NCBI GenBank assembly: GCA_964016885.1
Contig: OZ024752.1
Location: 28,272,001 to 28,336,000, forward strand
Length of the DNA stretch: 64,000 nucleotides
Direction of reading: 5' to 3'
From: Eledone cirrhosa
Taxonomy: Eukaryota
Under the pieces are notes generated by a model. That model had not been told where the DNA came from, searched no databases, and saw only the letters and a list, made by a program, of their open reading frames with translations. Both the position numbers and the translations under genes were made by a program. This document shows, piece by piece, positions 32,540 to 64,000 of this stretch; position 1 is the stretch's first letter, and each line of letters opens with the position of its first letter.

Positions 32540-33782
32540 CCCATAAATTATGCTTCGATTAGTACAAAACTATGTTTCATTCTTTAAGTTAACAAGCATT
32601 TCCCTAATTCCCATAAATACAGTAAAATTCTAAACTCTAAGAATGTTAAGCTATCATACTCCACTGCACCAAACCTTGAAGCATACATAAAAAATTTTTA
32701 ACTTAAAGCAATTATTAAACAACACTACAAAACAAAATATTTTAGAAACAGATGGGCATAACGTAATATCAGCCTCCCAACCACCAAATGGGAGACGGGT
32801 ATTACACAACCCACCTGAACTGTTATCCCAACCTATCCATGGAACACCTGCTACCCACAACAAAAACTGCAACTGCCACCTACCCGAAAGTTGCCCATTG
32901 AAGAATAAATGCCTAGAGTCCAACATTGTTTATCAATGCACTGTCGAATCGAACGACCAGAAATGGTATTACATCGGGTCTACCACTACCTCCTTTAAAT
33001 CTCGCTGGTATCATAATCGATTTTCGATTAAACATCCTGAACACCGTCTTGTAACCACGCTCGCCAATAAGACCTGGCAACTCCGTGAATGCAACCGGCA
33101 GTTCACTTTGAAATGGGATAAATTATCCAGCGCTAGTGCATATTGGAGTGGATTGAATTACTGCAGATTATGCAACCTTGAACTCTTTTATATCTTGAAA
33201 TCCAAAAACAACTTACTAAATGACAGAATCGAACGATCGTTAAACTGCAACCATAAACTGAAGGCTAAATTTTCTCACTATAAAATAACTTAACATTCGA
33301 ACCCGAGAATACAACATCACTTTCTCGCTAACTAATTTCATTCAATAACTACTTCCTAACTATACCCCCCCCCCCACACACACACACACTGCAGGGCAGT
33401 ACCCTGCTTATCATTATAATTGGATACTTGAGTACGATCAGCAGACTACAACTATTAACTCGGTGTATACCACCATTCGTTCCCCTTCTCGTAGCTTTTC
33501 TCTGTCCCCTCTCTCTTTCTCTTTCTTTCTCTATCTCCCTTCCTCTCCCTCTATCCCTCTCTCTCTCTCTCGCCTTCTGTCTCCCCCCCCCCTCCACATC
33601 TATCAACCTGCTCTCTGTGGCAATAAATAATTCCAAACTTGACAATATCAACACAATGCCTAAGTTGTCACTTTGAGAGTGATCAGTATAATAAAACCAC
33701 TTGTTGGACCCTATGACAACATTTAGATTAAGCTATCTGTATTCTTCAAACCACTCTCTCCCATTTCTCCGATCCCTACATA

Positions 33783-34070: not shown

Positions 34071-34107
<37 letters not shown>

Positions 34108-34109
<2 letters not shown>

Positions 34110-34220
34110 CGAAGGAAATGTGGTAAGCAACCAGGTGGACCGTAACGCACCAAAGTACTCAATACTTAGGGTAGTAGAGTGGGTAATAGGAACGAGTAGG
34201 ACCCCTGGGTCCTACTCGTT

Positions 34221-34225
<5 letters not shown>
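34108..34225. mobile_element. Miniature head-to-head PLE terminal insertion in (TA)n
   Basis: 34108-34205 is the reverse complement of 42508-42605; 19-bp hairpin 34186-34204/34207-34225. Confidence 0.75.
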
Positions 34226-34263
<38 letters not shown>

Positions 34264-36099: not shown

Positions 36100-37783
36100 T
36101 TTCTTAGGCTAAAAACAGAGATAAGATACCGGAAGAACAATCAATATTTCATACAAAGAATAAATACGGAAAGTCATACCTAAAAAGTATCTGGAAATAT
36201 TCATCCCTGGCCAAATCAAGAGTATAATATCGTATATATATATAGACTCTTTCCACACACACCTCAAAGCCAATTGGAAAAGATATCTAGACTTTATCCT
36301 ATGGCAAGAAGACATGAACTCACTTACTATGTTTAAAAACATGATAAACAACATAGATAATAACATACAATTCACAATGGAATCCAATCCCAAGGAATTA
36401 ACCTTCTTGGATAGTCTCATCTCTGTAATAGACGGGAAATTAGATACAGATATATTCTATAAACCCACAGATTCCAAGCAATACCTCTTTTTCACATCAA
36501 GTCACCCAAAACATACAAAACTTAACATTCCTTACAATTTGGCCAAACGTATATGTACCATAGTATCAGATCCAACTAAACGGGAGCAAAGACTAAAGGA
36601 ACTAAAAGACACCCTTATCTTAAGAGCCTTTCCACTTGAAATAATCAACAATGGAATAGACAGGGCAAAACACCTAAATCCCCATCAACTTAACAATCCA
36701 AAACAGAAAACCACACTCAACACCCTGCCATATGTATCCACTTTCAACCCCAGAAATACCGAAATGTTTGATCACCTACACAAAAACCTCCCCATCCTAC
36801 TTAAAGATGTAAAAATGAAGTCTATTCTTGAAACACACAAGATCCTTAAAAGTAAAAGACAACCCAAATCACTAAAACGCATTCTCACTGGACCAAATAT
36901 ACCCAAACCAATCCTCAACCCTACAGTTACCAAATGTGGTAGAACAAACTGTGGAACGTGCCTCTACCTCACTGAAGGACAAAAATTTACATTTAAAGAT
37001 GGCCAAACATTTACAGTAAAAAACAATTTCACCTGCAACTCGGAGAACTTGATTTACGCAATAACTTGCGGTGGGTGAAAACACAACTACATAGGACAGA
37101 CGGGCGCCTCATTACGCAAAAGAATGACCATCTACCGCCAACAAATCCGGGACGCTAACACAAGAAAAATCCCCTTGAGCAGCCATATTGCGAACTGCGC
37201 AGGAATGACACTACCCAACTTTAAAATCTTCCCCTTCTACAAGTGCTCAGATTCGTTCACACAGCAACAAAGAATAAACAAAGAAAATCTATTCCTTAAC
37301 AAATTTAAACCAAAACTAAACGGGTTATCACCCCAATAGAATTGTCATAAAATATAAACTCACATACGCACGGAGTGACAGATATATGTGTTTGTATGTG
37401 TGCATGTATATAATTATCACTACTATTAAAGACCAGAGACCAATTCTGTAGAATCAGGTTTATTCGTTGACAGACCATGACTTTGTGTGACCAACACATC
37501 CATGTTAAACCCTGCACGTGCACACACATATATCTATATATATATATATGCGCACACAGAATTCACCACTGTCGGTTGCGGGGCCCAATCTACATGAAGA
37601 ACTCAATGTGATCAGAATGACTTGTATTTTAATTTCACTGTCCTAACTTCTTATATTATGGAAAAAATATATGTGTATGTATGTATATATATATATTTGG
37701 AGGCCATTTCTCTATGTGTGTGGGTGTATGTATGTATATGTGTGTGTGTGTGTGTGTATGTGTGTGCATGTGGATGTATGTAT

Positions 37784-40249: not shown

Positions 40250-40308
<59 letters not shown>

Positions 40309-40318
40309 AACAAGTAAG

Positions 40319-40412
40319 ACCCCGACGGCTGAGCTCAAGCCGTTTCGACGGCTAATTCTGTACTGAATGAAAATTTATTCTGGTATTTAAATAGCCGAAC
40401 TTATCAAGGGGT
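40319..40412 (-). ncRNA. Type I hammerhead ribozyme, U3-A8 core variant, stable stem III (PLE C)
   Basis: Minus: acccc UUGAUAA guu-cggcua..uagccg-uc GAAA cggc-u-uga-gc-uca-gccg UC ggggu. Confidence 0.75.
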
Positions 40413-40798
40413 AATTCCATATATGGTCAAAGAGATAATCACCAGGATTGGTCACATCACAAGTTAGTAGTAAATCTGTGATGGCAAGTTGGTGGGGGAA
40501 GGGGTAGCTAAACCTGTCGGTAGGAGAAAAAGGGAGAGGGGGTGGAGTAGACCCATTCATGCGTTGGTAGTGCCAGCTACAGCTGGGTGTGAGGTCAAAG
40601 AGGATACTGGGGAGGGGGAGGGGGAGGAGGACGAAACGGTGAGTAGAACAATGAAAGGTAAAACTATAAAAGGTACTGAGAGAGAAAAAATAAGCAAAAT
40701 CTGGTTACTAAGACATAAGTCTCTCGCTATTGCTAGGCTAAAGAAATACATAAATAAATAAATAAACAAATAAGTGAATAAAAGAATAGATAAATACA

Positions 40799-40829
<31 letters not shown>

Positions 40830-42418
40830 ATGTAGAATAAAAAAATAAATAATAATGATAGAAATAAACTAGGTGGGACGGAAATAAAGGGACCCTTATA
40901 CGAGGTATAAGTGCGTGTATCGTACGGTGACGGGTCAACAAAGGGGGAGCCCAGAATACTAAAGAGACTACCACGAAAATAATAAAGGTTTCTACCCCAA
41001 TCACAGGGCCAGCAACCACCCAGTGCAAGAAAGTAAACTAGTACGAGAATATAATTCAGGGTCCCGCAAAAAAATACTAGTGCTAACTCTAAAGGTACCG
41101 CCACGAAACAAAAAGTCTTATACAAGCTACATGAACGATCGTACGAAGTAAAAGTAAAGAACGGAAAAATAATACAGGAACAAGTACGAGAAAAAGACGA
41201 CGACAAAGAAAGGGAACTGGGGTAGAAGGACTAGGGAGGGATGGGGGAAGGAGGAAATATAGAGGAAGCGATAAAAGAATGTAAAAGAAGATCTTACGTC
41301 TCCATTGGCAAGCAGGGGTTACCCATTACAAAATAGGCAAGTGGGGTGTTATAGCCCTAGTCTACCCCCCCCCCCGGTCATTATGGGGTTTGAGGGCGAG
41401 GTAAGTCCTACGTAATCGGTGTTTACATGTAGTAACCAGTTCATCTTTCTTGTTTAGGAGTTGGTCCGTCGAAAACAGCATTTGTAATGTTTCCTCCGAG
41501 CATAAATTGCACGGACGGCGTCCTCCCGTGTAAGAGTTAGCTCTGGACAGTAATTTCCAAGTGAGATCATAGTTGATGTTGTTGTCCTTGAGGTCCCATA
41601 TGTGGCCCGAAAGTGTAGTGGCGTGACGCCGGGCCGGGTTTCGGAAGGTATGTCTGTGTTGGTATAGCCGGGTCTTGAAGTCGCATGCGGTTAATCCTAT
41701 ATAGGCTTTGTTGGAGGTGTCGGTGCTCACGTTGCACTGGTAGATCACATTACGGTCTCTGCATCTGTTGTCGAGGGGGCAACTGGATCTATCAGGACAG
41801 TTGCACCTCCTGGTCGGCTCTCCACTGCTATTTAGGTTGTTTCTTCCATCGAGGTTGAGTTTTTTGTTGTTGGAGGAGACGATGTTTTGTGCGAAGTTAG
41901 GTGTAGTGTTGTAAGAGAGTTTGATGGTATTTTTGTTAATTATGTTGTGGTAGCGGTGTTGTGGTGGGAAGTGTTTTTCAATGAGCCTAAAGAAAATTTT
42001 CCCGATGGGAGTTGTCACCTTTTTTAAATTTATTTATCTATTCTTTTATTCACTTATTTGTTTATTTATTTATTTATTTATGTATTTCTTTAGCCTAGCA
42101 ATAGCGAGAGACTTATGTCTTAGTAACTAGATTTTGCTAATTTTTTCTCTCTCAGTACCTTTTATAGTTTTACCTTTCATTGTTCTACTCACCGTTTCGA
42201 CCTCCTCCCCCTCCCCCTCCCCAGTATCCTCTTTGACCTCATACCCAGCTGTAGCTGGCACTACCAACGCATGAATGGGTCTACTCCACCCCCTCTCCCT
42301 TTTTCTCCTACCGGCAGGTTTAGCTACCCCTTCCCCCACCAACTTGCCATCACAGATTTACTACTAACTTGTGATGTGACCAATCCTGGTGATTATCTCT
42401 TTGACCATATATGGAATT

Positions 42419-42512
42419 ATCCCTTGATAAGTTCGGCTATTTAAATACCAGAATAAATTTTCATTCAGTACAGAATTAGCCATCGAAACGGCTTGAGCTC
42501 AGCCGTCGGGGT
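42419..42512 (+). ncRNA. Type I hammerhead ribozyme, U3-A8 core variant (inverted copy)
   Basis: atccc TTGATAA gttcggcta..tagccatc GAAA cggcttgagctcagccg TC ggggt. Confidence 0.72.
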
Positions 42513-42705
42513 CTTACTTGTTCCTATTACCCACTCTACTACCCTAAGTATTGAGTACTTTGGTGCGTTATGGTCCACCTGGTTCCTTACCACATTTCCT
42601 TCGTTATATATATATATATATATTGTATAGCTATGTATGTATGTGTGTGTGTATGTATACATATATATATGTGTGTGTGTATGTGTGTGTGTGTGTGTGT
42701 GTGTG

Positions 42706-43004: not shown

Positions 43005-44757
<1,753 letters not shown>

Positions 44758-56778: not shown

Positions 56779-56972
56779 GAAAGATTCAGGACCCCGTCGG
56801 CTGAGCTCCTATCGTTTCAACAGCTAGATCCGAATAGTTCGTATCTAGCCGTTGAAACAGCAGGAGCTCAGCCGTCGGGGTCCTGAATTTTTCATATTAC
56901 CCACACTACTACCCCAACTATCGTGTACTCTCGTGAGTAATGGTTTAACTGGTTTCTACCGCTTTCATTCTG
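56778..56972. mobile_element. Head-to-head PLE terminal fragment (family related to PLE C) with two inverted hammerhead 3' halves
   Basis: ttcaggaccccgtcggctgagctcct..ctagatccgaa / ttcgtatctag..GAAAcagcaggagctcagccGTCggggtcctgaa. Confidence 0.65.
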
Positions 56973-60604: not shown

Positions 60605-63213
60605 TTAATTGTACTATTTATTGTTATGAAAATACAAAAACCTTTAGCAGTTATATGTATTTTTTATACAAACCCTAAATAGTGGTAGGCAGTAATGTAT
60701 TACTAGCTTATTACCAGTAAGTTAAGTAGCTCAATGTAAAAACACCAGATGATTTACAGAGCAGTTATATGAAATATAAGAATCAAAGAACTGTTCAAAA
60801 CATTATTGTGCTTACAGCTGTTTCCTCCAAACCGAGGTTTGGATTCTTCGGAGCAATTTATTAATGAATGGACAGTTATATGACCTCCTTTTCAGCCAAG
60901 AGACATACCGATACATATGCAAATATTGTGGGTCAACATTCATTACAGCATTTAGAGTGGCAGTACACACTTCGAGATTACATTTATAATAAAAGGTACA
61001 ATCAAAAATCAAAAATACAGGTTAAAATACAACATGAAGATAAGCGGTTATATAGTGCAAATGTTATATGTGTGGCAAGCACGTGCGTCTTGTTTATATA
61101 GTGTGGCAGAGAGATATGTGTGGTAGGAGCACTTAGGTAGGTAAAGAAGAGTGTTAGGTTGGTTGATCTGGTGGGAAATTCTTTATATGATTGTTATAGT
61201 CTGTGTGTGGAGAAAAGATATAAGCATTAAAAATAGTGCAAGCTTTAAAAGTATTAAACGTATTGGAGATGCACAGCGAAGGGATGACAAGGACCTCATG
61301 TACTTCGACATTTTCATGGTCAGGGGAGTGTATTCTTCGATTATATGCCCCTCACATAATCCACGGCAATTCTATATTGAGCGTTTGACAATCCAGTTAG
61401 AGAATCGTAGTCCGATGTTCTTTAGTTCAATACAGGAGGCTGTTACGTTTCGCGAAACGACATTGAATACTACCCGGAAGTGTGTGTGTGGCTAAGGGGA
61501 GTTAATGCATGAGGGGAGGTAACTCCGGGGTTTCTATACCTAGCTATTGAAATGTCTCAATATAGACCCTAATTTCTATGGTTATGCGCAACTTCCAAAA
61601 GATTCCTAAAGCATAAAGTGTTTTAACTATAAGTAGTTTATTAAGTTGTGCTGAAGGTGTTCGTATTATTATGGTGAATTAACCCCCATCCTAGGGTGCT
61701 CCAAATGAATATTATAGGTGATGAGCGAGGATTCTAAATTAATGATCCCTGTGGTTGTACCCTACTCATAGGACCAGGCGCGGTGATTGCAGAATCACTT
61801 CAAGACACAATGATCTCTGGTAAGTTCTGGGTCATCGCTTGCTACATTGGATGTCGAAAGGTAATCATCATCAGGGCCGGCCAGAGGTCAATCCGCAGTC
61901 CTCATGACCCCACTCTGACCATCAAATCATCCATATAAGTACAACCCGCACGGCAGTTGCAATACATTCATTCTCTGCACTCAGCGTCCTGGTCCTACTG
62001 CTCAACAGCGTAACTAGATTAAATCGTTTTTCATCTGTCTAAGGAAGGCACTTCCTCCGCACAACACCACCAAAACTAATCAATTCATGCTTAAATTACC
62101 TATAGAGCGGTGTAGTGCAGTTCAGGTGGGTGGATGTTGTCACCCCTAACGTAGAGGCATAAATGGGTATTCTCCCAGCGAAGGGTTCCGGAGGGATGTC
62201 GTAGTTTGTGTTATATTAGATCAGTTAGTGTTGTGTATGTGGTATAAGGTGTGCCCCTGGTGTTTGATGCTAGATGTGGTGTTTGGTTCAAGTCCGACAT
62301 TGCTATATATTGGGCTTAAAGTTTTGGAAGGAATGTCTGAAGCGGTGCTGGCAAGTTGCAAACACCTCAGATTTTTTGTTAAGTAGGTTACGGTTGGAGA
62401 AGATAATGTTGTGGGTCTCTAGTATACAGAGGTTACAGAATTTATTAGGTGGTTTGTACGAAGTCGCGCTGCCTATCACTTCCCATTTGAGTGTGTATGG
62501 TTTATTTTTAGTTTTTAGATAGTGTATGTAGCTAGATAGTGAGGTGGAGTTGGCTAGGCTGTGCTTTTTGAACGAGTGGATGTGCGAATTATATCTGATT
62601 TTGAAGCTGTTAGAAGTGGAGCCTACATAGGTTTCTGAAGAGTTGCTAGTTGTGACGGTGCATGAGTATATGATATCCTTGGTTAGGCATTTTTTATCCA
62701 AAGGGCAGGTTCTATTAGCTCTACAGTTACAATTATCCTGTGTGTTAGTCTGCTGGTTATAATGCAGTGCAGAAGTCTGGGTGGTAGCTATAGGATTTTG
62801 GACATTCGGGTTGTCAACCCCGGTGTTATTTCTTATACTAGTGTTATTTCTATTGTTACTGCCGTTACTATGGTTGCTTGCTACAGAGGTATTTAGAAGG
62901 TTTGGATTCTGTTGTGATTTCGTTTGTTGGAAGTAAGAATTAATTTTATTTTTATTGCTGCTAGCTATGTGGTATGCTAAGTTAGGCGTCGTAGAGTATG
63001 AGATTTTAATAGTGTTTTTGTTTAAAAGGTTGTGGTACTTGTGTCCTAGAGGGAAATGTTTATCTAGTAGTGAGAAGAAAGCCCTAGGTATGTTGGTGGA
63101 GACATTTAGGTTGAAAGGAGGGTTGAAAAATGTATTATTTCTTCTTCTATTTTTGCTTTTAGTGTTTGGTGTGTTGTTTCTTCTTACGGCACCACAGTAG
63201 TTTCCGTGGTAAT
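60602..63213 (-). mobile_element. Penelope-like element remnant E (GIY-YIG, Naiad-like) with long 3' region
   Basis: FFNPPFNLNVSTNI..HFPLGHKY..IKISYSTTPN, CNCRANRTCPL, IIYSCTV..YVGST..FKIRY, CNLCILE..LLNKKSE. The left boundary is approximate. Confidence 0.82.
60809..60855 (-). ncRNA. Minimal type I hammerhead (PLE E), U4C core change
   Basis: Minus: ugcu CCGAAGA a-uccaaacc-uc-gguuugga-g GAAA cagcug UA agca. Confidence 0.6.
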
Positions 63214-64000
63214 ATTAAACTCTATCAATATTAAACTCTATCTCTAATGGGGTATCCAATAGAATCGCTAGCCTGTCCTATGAGGCAAACATATTTAGCA
63301 AAGACTCACAATATTAAAATCAAACATTAGCTAGATCCGGCCATAATATAGAAATTGAGTTCCTACCTAAGAAAACACATAGCTACAACATCATCTCGCA
63401 CAATATGTCCATGAGGAAACCTAATAATAGGAATAGCAACCACAAGTACACCAAAGCGGAGGGTGCCACCGGAAGTAACCATTACCACGGAAACTACTGT
63501 GGTGCCGTAAGAAGAAACAACACACCAAACACTAAAAGCAAAAATAGAAGAAGAAATAATACATTTTTCAACCCTCCTTTCAACCTAAATGTCTCCACCA
63601 ACATACCTAGGGCTTTCTTCTCACTACTAGATAAAAACTTCCCTCTAGGACACAAGTACCACAACCTTTTAAACAAAGACACTATTAAAATCTCATACTC
63701 TACGACGCCTAACTTAGCATACCACATAGCTAGCAGCAATAAAAATAAAATTAATTCTTACTTCCAACAAACGAAATCACAATAGGATCCAAACCTTCTA
63801 AATACCTCTGTAGCAAGCAACCATAGTAACGGCAGTAACAATAGAAATAACACTAGTATAAGAAATAACACCGGGGTTGACAACCCGAATGTCCAAAATC
63901 CTATAGCTACCACCCAGACTTCTGCACTGCATTATAACCAGCAGACTAACACACAGGATAATTGTAACTGTAGAGCTAATAGAACCTGCCCTTTGGATAA
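63214..64000 (+). mobile_element. Second, inverted copy of PLE E running off the window
   Basis: 63481-64000 is the near-exact reverse complement of 62694-63213. Confidence 0.85.

What the first reader, a model, noticed from the sequence alone, without database searches (positions are those of the whole stretch)
40319..42512. Hammerhead ribozyme with compensated U3-A8 core (UUGAUAA) in a Penelope pseudo-LTR, two inverted copies
Seen: both copies fold as a type I hammerhead with stem I acccc/ggggu, stem II cggcua/uagccg, GAAA, a real hairpin stem III (cggc..gccg) and a GUC site. The core reads UUGAUAA rather than CUGAUGA. Established: positions 3 and 8 form a Watson-Crick pair in the active hammerhead, U3-A8 is a known but uncommon natural covariant, and PLE pseudo-LTRs carry hammerheads. 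Inference: the double change is compensatory rather than decay, so this is a functional variant that CUGAnGA searches would miss. The full stem III suggests it could cleave as a monomer, unlike the minimal dimer-type PLE hammerheads.
Basis: partly seen in the sequence, partly recalled or inferred. Interest (0 to 1): 0.8.

Follow-up and report, generated by a model that had tools for sequence, protein, structure and literature searches.

The report
Relaxed hammerhead core in Penelope lineage
This is the end piece of an abundant animal jumping gene carrying a hammerhead RNA fold with a U-A pair in place of the usual C-G in its active site, a swap already published for such elements; its family spent a long period with that pair mismatched and kept spreading, so the RNA is likely a slow or dispensable cutter rather than a finely compensated one.

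Summary
The motif is real. The minus copy (40412-40319) folds as a type I hammerhead with core UUGAUAA; the plus copy is the inverted arm of the same insertion and has two private stem changes. The host is a 5'-truncated Penelope-like retrotransposon with Hydra-clade motifs, inserted in (TA)n. UUGAUAA is the subfamily state (36 identical copies), not decay. U3-A8 in Penelope repeats is published (PMC4209133), and this scan has noted it on other DNA, this genome included.

Within the family it is not clean covariation. Of 3,614 exact core matches, 1,478 read C3·A8 (mismatch) and 8 read C3-G8. A tree of the protein-coding DNA gives U3, then C3, then U3 again (AU p=1.4e-6 against one C3 clade), with the ORF under purifying selection throughout. 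Stems and the other core letters stayed fixed. Related elements elsewhere keep a Watson-Crick 3-8 pair (24 of 24 distinct motifs).

Stem III is predicted to fold as a monomer but keeps an invariant palindromic loop, so dimers remain possible. Insertions extend past the GUC site. Best reading: fold selected, chemistry relaxed. Cleavage is untested.

The parts
40304..42033 (-). 5'-truncated body of a Penelope-like element (Hydra-type): end of ORF, 3' UTR/pseudo-LTR, hammerhead, ending in a (TA)n tract
   Evidence: matches in all 30 own-genome loci
41362..42033 (-). Stop-free frame of 223 aa: RT thumb end, CxCX5C linker, GIY-YIG-type endonuclease (VIY...YIG, CxxC, CxH); its first few codons come from the inverted arm
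   Evidence: 96% identical to the RT+EN frame of L090; no Pfam hit above cut-off
40319..40412 (-). Type I hammerhead fold, subfamily-typical copy
   Evidence: identical in 36 of 40 scored genome places
40401..40407 (-). Core strand U3 U4 G5 A6 U7 A8 A9
   Evidence: sequence, coordinates
40347..40400 (-). Stem II: G10.1-C11.1, 2x1 internal loop, 6 bp, then a 37-nt variable, partly paired loop II
40325..40346 (-). G12 A13 A14 and stem III (6 bp, 7-nt loop holding the palindrome GAGCUC)
40323..40324 (-). Predicted cleavage bond after C17 of GUC
   Evidence: inferred from hammerhead numbering; cleavage not tested
40307..40418 (-). Extended stem I: distal helix (40418-40414 with 40311-40307) closes the fold just inside the insertion end
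   Evidence: 4 pairs invariant in 17 hand-picked copies
42020..42527 (+). Inverted, 5'-truncated arm of the same insertion
42419..42512 (+). Second hammerhead copy with private changes at 42420 (stem I, gives U-G) and 42482 (stem II, gives C·A); GUC ends at 42507
42528..42607 (+). About 80-nt 'tail' on one arm only; it is the start of the element's 5' UTR
   Evidence: in tandem copies L023, L026, L053, L194 it continues to the ORF start, about 279 nt after the start of the motif
40256..40306 (.). (TA)n target tract at the left junction; a shorter TA run follows 42607

Best explanation
The two copies are the ends of one truncated, doubled-back insertion of a Penelope-like retrotransposon with Hydra-clade motifs, and the hammerhead fold they carry is conserved across the family while its 3-8 pair is not, so it likely works as a slow, probably protein-assisted cutter and binding scaffold whose cleavage is not needed in each round of transposition. 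Shown: the fold, the family-wide A8, the order U3 then C3 then U3 on the ORF tree, purifying selection on the ORF during the C3·A8 phase, and insertions that run about 20 or 100 nt past the GUC site. Inferred: transcription through an upstream pseudo-LTR; occasional cleavage there, about 190 nt before the start codon, trims the 5' end; reverse transcription starts at two internal sites downstream of the uncut 3' hammerhead, primed by nicked (TA)n DNA, and the second start makes the inverted arm with its tail. U3-A8 in this window is then a return to pairing from a tolerated mismatch. A deeper C-G to U-A change, possibly through U·G, is inferred from relatives.
For: Counts: with one flank 981 U3-A8, 465 C3·A8, 24 with G8 (17 U·G, 6 C-G, 1 A·G) and 30 other of 1,500. 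With the other flank 1,013 C3·A8 and 13 with G8 (11 U·G, 2 C-G) of 2,114. C3-G8 is 8 observed against about 15 expected if independent. The ORF tree (40 rows kept of 63) is a ladder with the young U3 copies nested in C3 copies (same result with 43 rows, and on a pseudo-LTR tree with positions 3, 7, 8 masked, 103 of 146 rows). AU test rejects one C3 clade, p=1.4e-6 (36 rows). Fixed ORF differences have pN/pS 0.10 within the C3 phase and 0.11 across the return, against 0.47 for private changes. Among 8 subfamily majorities U4, G5, A6, A9, G12-A14 and C17 never change and stems change at 2 of 39 sites, against 16 of 37 in loop II and 81 of 150 upstream (p about 1e-7 for stems, 0.002-0.05 for the eight core sites). 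44 of 44 sampled ends continue past GUC. PMC11167929: in a lizard element, hammerhead mutants did not affect insertion in vitro, uncut RNA was the main substrate, cleavage needed protein, and the tail lies between two RT start sites. PMC9901934: in one hammerhead only the G-C swap rescued the 3-8 pair. A sister family in this genome has a fixed CAGAAGA core.
Against: No activity or RNA data for this element. The eight single-stranded core positions are conserved, which suggests catalysis still matters. The return to U3-A8 and a still younger subfamily with a better-paired stem II look like selection for an active fold. Across relatives the 3-8 pair is strictly Watson-Crick (24 of 24), so relaxation is not general. 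Natural U3-A8 is called active in PMC3088659. The root of the ladder is weak (support 62 and 54), and only one old U3·G8 copy had ORF sequence. Recombination between ORF and pseudo-LTR was not tested, though both trees agree. The C3·A8 share depends on the pattern: 41% in the strict patterns, 24 of the first 100 listed of 7,176 in a looser one (hand count).
Confidence: 0.55

Rival explanations
1. One reading: a fully functional hammerhead with a compensatory U3-A8 pair that cleaves as a monomer. The C3·A8 phase would be a handicap that the lineage survived and then repaired.
For: Stable monomer fold; reversion to U3-A8 and expansion of young U3-A8 subfamilies; Watson-Crick covariation across related families; U3-A8 reported natural and active (PMC3088659); fungal Penelope hammerheads with long helix III cleave as monomers (PMC4209133).
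Against: The C3·A8 phase spans about 0.12 synonymous changes per site with 1,478 counted copies and a selected ORF. All sampled insertions run through the cleavage site. U-A did not give strong rescue in the one pairwise scan seen.
Confidence: 0.17
2. A catalytically dead scaffold: the three-way junction is kept only as a binding or folding signal for the RT-endonuclease near the reverse-transcription start sites, and never cuts.
For: Positions 3, 7 and 8 drift; the distal stem I ends at the insertion boundary; cleavage was dispensable in vitro in another Penelope element; the sister family carries U4A; 35 of 44 sampled ends lack the 5' core.
Against: C17, U16.1 and the UGA and GAA letters stay fixed over about 0.38 synonymous changes per site; the window's subfamily holds a pair reported as active.
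Confidence: 0.17
3. The mismatch is only apparent. In CUGAGAA, C3 could pair with G7 in a slipped register (a loop one base shorter, with a bulged A before stem II), or form a protonated C·A pair; or a U3-A8 partner could cut it in trans through the palindromic stem III. Cleavage would then have been kept throughout.
For: C3 goes with G7 in 95 and 97 of the 100 listed matches (hand count); U7 appears only after the return to U3; one insertion with old-type flanks has U3/G7/A8 in both arms (L374); loop III is invariant (0 of 7 columns) and a double hammerhead folds at -66.3 against 2 x -24.9 kcal/mol; an extra base after A9 is usual in Penelope hammerheads.
Against: One lineage and one event, so hitchhiking explains C3 with G7 equally well. 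No natural or tested shortened core turned up in the searches. The energies are standard-state predictions.
Confidence: 0.11

Closest known systems
U3-A8 minimal hammerheads of Cercyon Penelope-like elements, Schistosoma mansoni (Cervera and De la Pena 2014, PMC4209133; parts 1-2 of 4 read)
   Same: Type I hammerhead in a pseudo-LTR, U3-A8 instead of C3-G8 (about 1,300 hits there), long helix II with unpaired base near its start, G10.1-C11.1, palindromic loop 3, pairs of motifs on opposite strands.
   Different: Here stem III has 5-6 bp and is predicted to fold as a monomer, loop II is 37 nt, and a C3·A8 subfamily makes up a quarter to two fifths of core-bearing copies.
Hydra clade of Penelope-like elements (Craig et al. 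2021, PMC8557442; section 11, passages, File S1 Hydra sheet and File S2 read)
   Same: C-terminal GIY-YIG, CxCX5C linker, DKT, RW[K/R], CxxC and CxH near the end, (TA)n targets, hammerhead near the 3' end, inverted 5'-truncated arm with tail.
   Different: All 26 Hydra rows of File S2 have CUGAnGA and a stem III of 3-4 bp with a 1-3 nt loop. This family has A8 and a stable stem III, and its unit is 3.1-3.4 kb rather than under 3 kb.
Poseidon element of Anolis carolinensis (Frangieh et al. 2024, PMC11167929; passages and second half of main text read)
   Same: Tail between two internal reverse-transcription starts downstream of the hammerhead; AT-rich targets; insertions include the uncut site.
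   Different: Different clade, canonical C3-G8 core, hammerhead overlapping the start codon; tested in vitro, whereas nothing is tested here.
Long-helix-III hammerheads of fungal and protist Penelope-like elements (PMC4209133)
   Same: Stable helix III allowing a monomer fold.
   Different: Those belong to endonuclease-less telomeric elements; the Serpula one was shown to cleave as a monomer.
Natural U3-A8 core variants (Perreault et al. 2011, PMC3088659; section 8 read)
   Same: Same 3-8 swap, described as seen in several natural examples and active in vitro.
   Different: The section read gives no lineage history and no fixed C3·A8 state.

Membership tests
Type I hammerhead ribozyme | Three helices around a junction, open at stem I | tested here: met
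   (minus copy); 97% of cells paired in 17 hand-picked copies
Type I hammerhead ribozyme | Literal core C3 U4 G5 A6 N7 G8 A9 | tested here: not met
   U3 and A8 in both copies; C3-G8 in 8 of 3,614 genome matches
Type I hammerhead ribozyme | Watson-Crick-compatible 3-8 pair | tested here: met
   U-A in both window copies; not met by 1,478 of 3,614 family matches
Type I hammerhead ribozyme | G12 A13 A14, A15.1-U16.1, NUH site, G10.1-C11.1 | tested here: met
   invariant among 8 subfamily majorities; G10.1-C11.1 has predicted probability only 0.10
Type I hammerhead ribozyme | Loop I-loop II tertiary contact | tested here: inconclusive
   an internal loop in stem I exists; no consistent complementarity seen by eye
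Type I hammerhead ribozyme | Match to Rfam hammerhead models | tested here: not met
Type I hammerhead ribozyme | Site-specific self-cleavage | not testable with these tools
   needs a bench assay
Minimal, dimer-only Penelope hammerheads | Helix III absent or too short to fold alone | tested here: not met
   6 bp, -7.1 kcal/mol, against 0 to -0.8 for 35 loosely matched stem III segments of relatives
Minimal, dimer-only Penelope hammerheads | Palindromic helix III/loop 3 | tested here: met
   palindrome with one extra U; loop unchanged in 7 of 7 columns
Penelope-like element | Single ORF with RT and GIY-YIG-type endonuclease; pseudo-LTR; inverted 5'-truncated arm; tail | tested here: met
   tandem pseudo-LTR before the ORF in L023, L026, L053, L091, L194
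Hydra clade | CxCX5C linker; DKT; RWK-like motif; CxxC and CxH flanking E and N; C-terminal endonuclease | tested here: met
   read in translations: CNCPDRSSC, SDKTG, RWR (K in the paper), CNLC, CKH; definition
Hydra clade | Insertion in (TA)n | tested here: met
Hydra clade | Canonical CUGAnGA hammerhead | tested here: not met
   A8 core against 26 of 26 canonical rows in File S2; described there as a trait, not a criterion
Hydra clade | Placement within the clade in an RT tree with named reference families | not tested
   no named reference protein was held as a stored sequence; likeness to the published octopus family was judged by eye

The most novel reading that the evidence does not exclude
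A hammerhead with an unpaired-looking core (CUGAGAA, C3·A8) is an active natural variant, through a slipped C3-G7 register, a protonated C·A pair or cutting in trans by a palindrome-paired partner. The dated subfamily ladder U·G, U-A, C·A, U-A would then be a natural record of a ribozyme active site walking through intermediates while its retrotransposon stayed active.
Probability: 0.12. Interest if true: 0.7.

Novelty: new variant of a known kind. Interest (0 to 1): 0.36.

Why it matters
The U3-A8 core alone is known and matters little. The family history is the useful part. What hammerheads do in Penelope elements is stated to be unclear (PMC8557442), and one in vitro study found cleavage dispensable (PMC11167929). 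Here an autonomous lineage carried a mismatched 3-8 pair through more than a thousand insertions while keeping every stem and the other core letters. That is genomic evidence that the fold is under tighter selection than fast chemistry. It also supplies a dated natural series (U·G, U-A, C·A, U-A in one scaffold) that can be assayed directly. In practice, motif searches that demand CUGAnGA, and Rfam, miss this whole family.

Tried and rejected
Rfam: no hammerhead hit. Pfam: nothing above cut-off for the endonuclease or the RT+EN frame. Sequencing runs: no RNA holder listed; no reads were laid, so this says nothing on expression. My first genome pattern was biased to one flank; exposed further subfamilies, so both strict and loose counts are given. 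U3-A8 with the second flank was not counted directly (at most 1,088). The idea that a stable stem III always goes with a weakened core was rejected: a family with an 8-bp stem III (window 32077, minus) has CUGAUGA in 53 of 57 matches, and its apparent G3·G8 in the window is a single-copy change. Pair counting on 17 hand-picked copies showed no two-sided changes at all; the stems are simply invariant, so support comes from conservation, not covariation. Rooting with the sister family was weak. Rows dropped: 43 of 146 (truncated), 23 of 63 and 23 of 66 (under 400 aligned bases), and 4 of 40 (two outgroup rows, two singletons). In one search, 59 of 78 metagenome loci had enough 3' sequence and 26 of those gave no motif; 8 of 1,180 shuffles gave a hit, none with U4 and a Watson-Crick pair. 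One A·G hit (L347) was set aside as a second, weaker hit in a locus that has a canonical motif. Literature searches for a natural C3·A8 or shortened core found none. Lunse et al. 2017 and Przybilski and Hammann 2007 were not held and could bear on both novelty and activity. The supplements of PMC4209133 and PMC3088659 were not looked at. Also read without effect on the verdict: PMC6765202, PMC3884650 and PMC7151607 (passages) and bioRxiv 10.64898/2026.07.22.740005 (part 1 of 5).

Full report
Observation. The plus copy at 42419-42512 has the same core but two private changes, at 42420 in stem I and 42482 in stem II, and folds worse. The copies are the two arms of one insertion, 97.4% identical over 508 nt. 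That is about what the subfamily's 1.3% spread predicts, so they count as one observation. Rfam does not detect the motif.

The element. The minus strand carries a 223-aa frame ending in a GIY-YIG-type endonuclease, 96% identical to the RT+endonuclease frame of another copy. Family frames show DKT, RWR, CxCX5C, CxxC and CxH, which match the description of the Hydra clade of Penelope-like elements, as does insertion in (TA)n (PMC8557442 section 11). No tree with named references was made. Pfam gives nothing; 1,462 unnamed homologues exist, the listed best at 40-58% identity. In tandem copies the 80-nt tail seen on the plus arm continues to the start codon, about 279 nt after the start of the motif, so it is the start of the 5' UTR. 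All 44 sampled ends run past GUC, 24 into TA repeats and 20 into the tail. This fits the two internal reverse-transcription starts and the use of uncut RNA reported for a lizard element (PMC11167929). The 3' half of the motif has 45,900 exact matches against 7,176 for the 5' core; 35 of 44 sampled ends lack the core.

Is UUGAUAA decay? No. Of 40 scored places 36 are identical over 121 nt. Across eight subfamily majorities the stems change at 2 of 39 sites and U4, G5, A6, A9, G12-A14 and C17 at none, while loop II changes at 16 of 37 and the upstream flank at 81 of 150 (binomial p about 1e-7 for stems, 0.002-0.05 for the eight core sites). N7 takes all four letters, as expected of the free position.

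Is it compensatory? At depth, probably. All 26 Hydra rows in the published table have CUGAnGA. Among 78 related metagenome loci, 59 had enough 3' sequence and 33 gave a motif, 24 distinct: 22 C-G, 1 U-A (L315), 1 G-C (L331), no mismatch; 8 of 1,180 shuffles gave any hit, none with U4 and a Watson-Crick pair. Within this family, no. With one flank, 1,500 matches split into 981 U3-A8, 465 C3·A8, 17 U·G, 6 C-G, 1 A·G and 30 other. With the other flank, 2,114 matches include 1,013 C3·A8, 11 U·G and 2 C-G. C3-G8 is 8 observed against about 15 expected under independence. A looser pattern lists 74 U-A, 24 C·A, 2 U·G and no C-G in its first 100 rows (hand count).

Order of events. A tree of the protein-coding DNA, which does not use the ribozyme, is a ladder: old U3 forms (UUGAAGA, UUGAAAA, UUGACAA), then CUGAGAA, then UUGAGAA and UUGAUAA (40 of 63 rows; 43 of 66 rows). 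A pseudo-LTR tree with positions 3, 7 and 8 masked agrees (103 of 146 rows). Holding the C3 copies together is rejected (p-AU 1.4e-6, 36 rows). Within-group spread falls from 0.079 through 0.062, 0.035 and 0.025 to 0.013 along the ladder, and fixed ORF differences have pN/pS of 0.10 within the C3 phase and 0.11 across the return, against 0.47 for private changes. So the protein-coding lineage itself carried C3·A8 for about 0.12 synonymous changes per site, and the window's U3-A8 is a reversion. The root is weak (support 62 and 54) and only one old U·G copy had ORF sequence, so the first steps away from C-G are inferred.

Monomer or dimer. Stem III is predicted to fold alone (-7.1 kcal/mol), unlike 35 loosely matched segments from relatives (0 to -0.8). 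But it is a palindrome with one extra U, its loop is unchanged in all eight subfamily majorities, and two molecules fold into a double hammerhead at -66.3 against 2 x -24.9 kcal/mol. Both routes stay open. I tested whether a stable stem III forces a weak core. A sister family with intact 713-aa frames has a fixed CAGAAGA core and a 5-bp stem III, though its fold is poorly predicted. A third family has an 8-bp stem III with CUGAUGA in 53 of 57 matches, so the rule fails.

Literature. U3-A8 in Penelope pseudo-LTRs was reported for Schistosoma with about 1,300 hits, and long helix III for fungal and protist elements (PMC4209133, parts 1-2 of 4). Natural U3-A8 is described as active in vitro (PMC3088659 section 8). 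In a full pairwise scan of one hammerhead only the G-C swap rescued the pair, and the other single and double changes there were low (PMC9901934 passages). I found no report of a fixed natural C3·A8 core, but two key papers were not available. Earlier notes of this scan describe U3-A8 Penelope hammerheads many times, in this genome too; my word and sequence look-ups for the C3·A8 history returned nothing.

Verdict. A real hammerhead fold in a Penelope-like element, with a known core variant. The best-supported reading is that the fold is selected and the chemistry relaxed (0.55). Rivals are a fully active compensated monomer (0.17), a dead scaffold (0.17), and hidden pairing or rescue in trans (0.11). 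The headline is known; the U, C, U history at position 3 against a fixed A8 is the new part and is directly testable. Interest 0.36.

Noticed in passing
genome-wide; L126-L154: The 3' half of the motif has 45,900 exact matches. Most sampled ones are tiny palindromic insertions, truncated and inverted inside loop II, with the tail on one arm; they could be mistaken for MITEs.
   Followed up: partly
L238-L269 (e.g. L243:2322-2378 and 5582-5638): A second Hydra-type family, 54% identical in protein, with many intact 713-aa frames and a hammerhead-like motif whose core reads CAGAAGA (U4A) in nearly all copies seen; its fold is weakly predicted.
   Followed up: partly
window 32084-32005, minus: Hammerhead of another family with an 8-bp stem III; canonical CUGAUGA in 53 of 57 genome matches, the window copy has C3G. 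The loop III segment occurs in both orientations among copies.
   Followed up: partly
window 39087 (+), 49041 (+), 57090 (-): Three further canonical hammerhead motifs with short palindromic stem III.
   Followed up: no
L331 and L315 (metagenome): Related elements with a G3-C8 core (both pseudo-LTRs of L331) and an independent U3-A8 core (L315).
   Followed up: partly
L356-L371, L375: The youngest subfamily (terminal branches 0-0.005) has U3-A8, an A-U pair next to G10.1-C11.1 and a G-U in stem III.
   Followed up: partly
window 32691-33290 (+), 44043-44756 (-), 62306-63214 (-), 63318-63782 (+), 36164-37075 (+), 710-1279 (-): Other retroelement fragments: several Hydra-type RT or endonuclease pieces, one other RT fragment and one LINE-like RT, all judged by eye.
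   Followed up: no
window 56780-56960 and about 34100-34230: Short palindromic end pieces of this or a related family, the second reduced to little more than the two ends and the tail.
   Followed up: no
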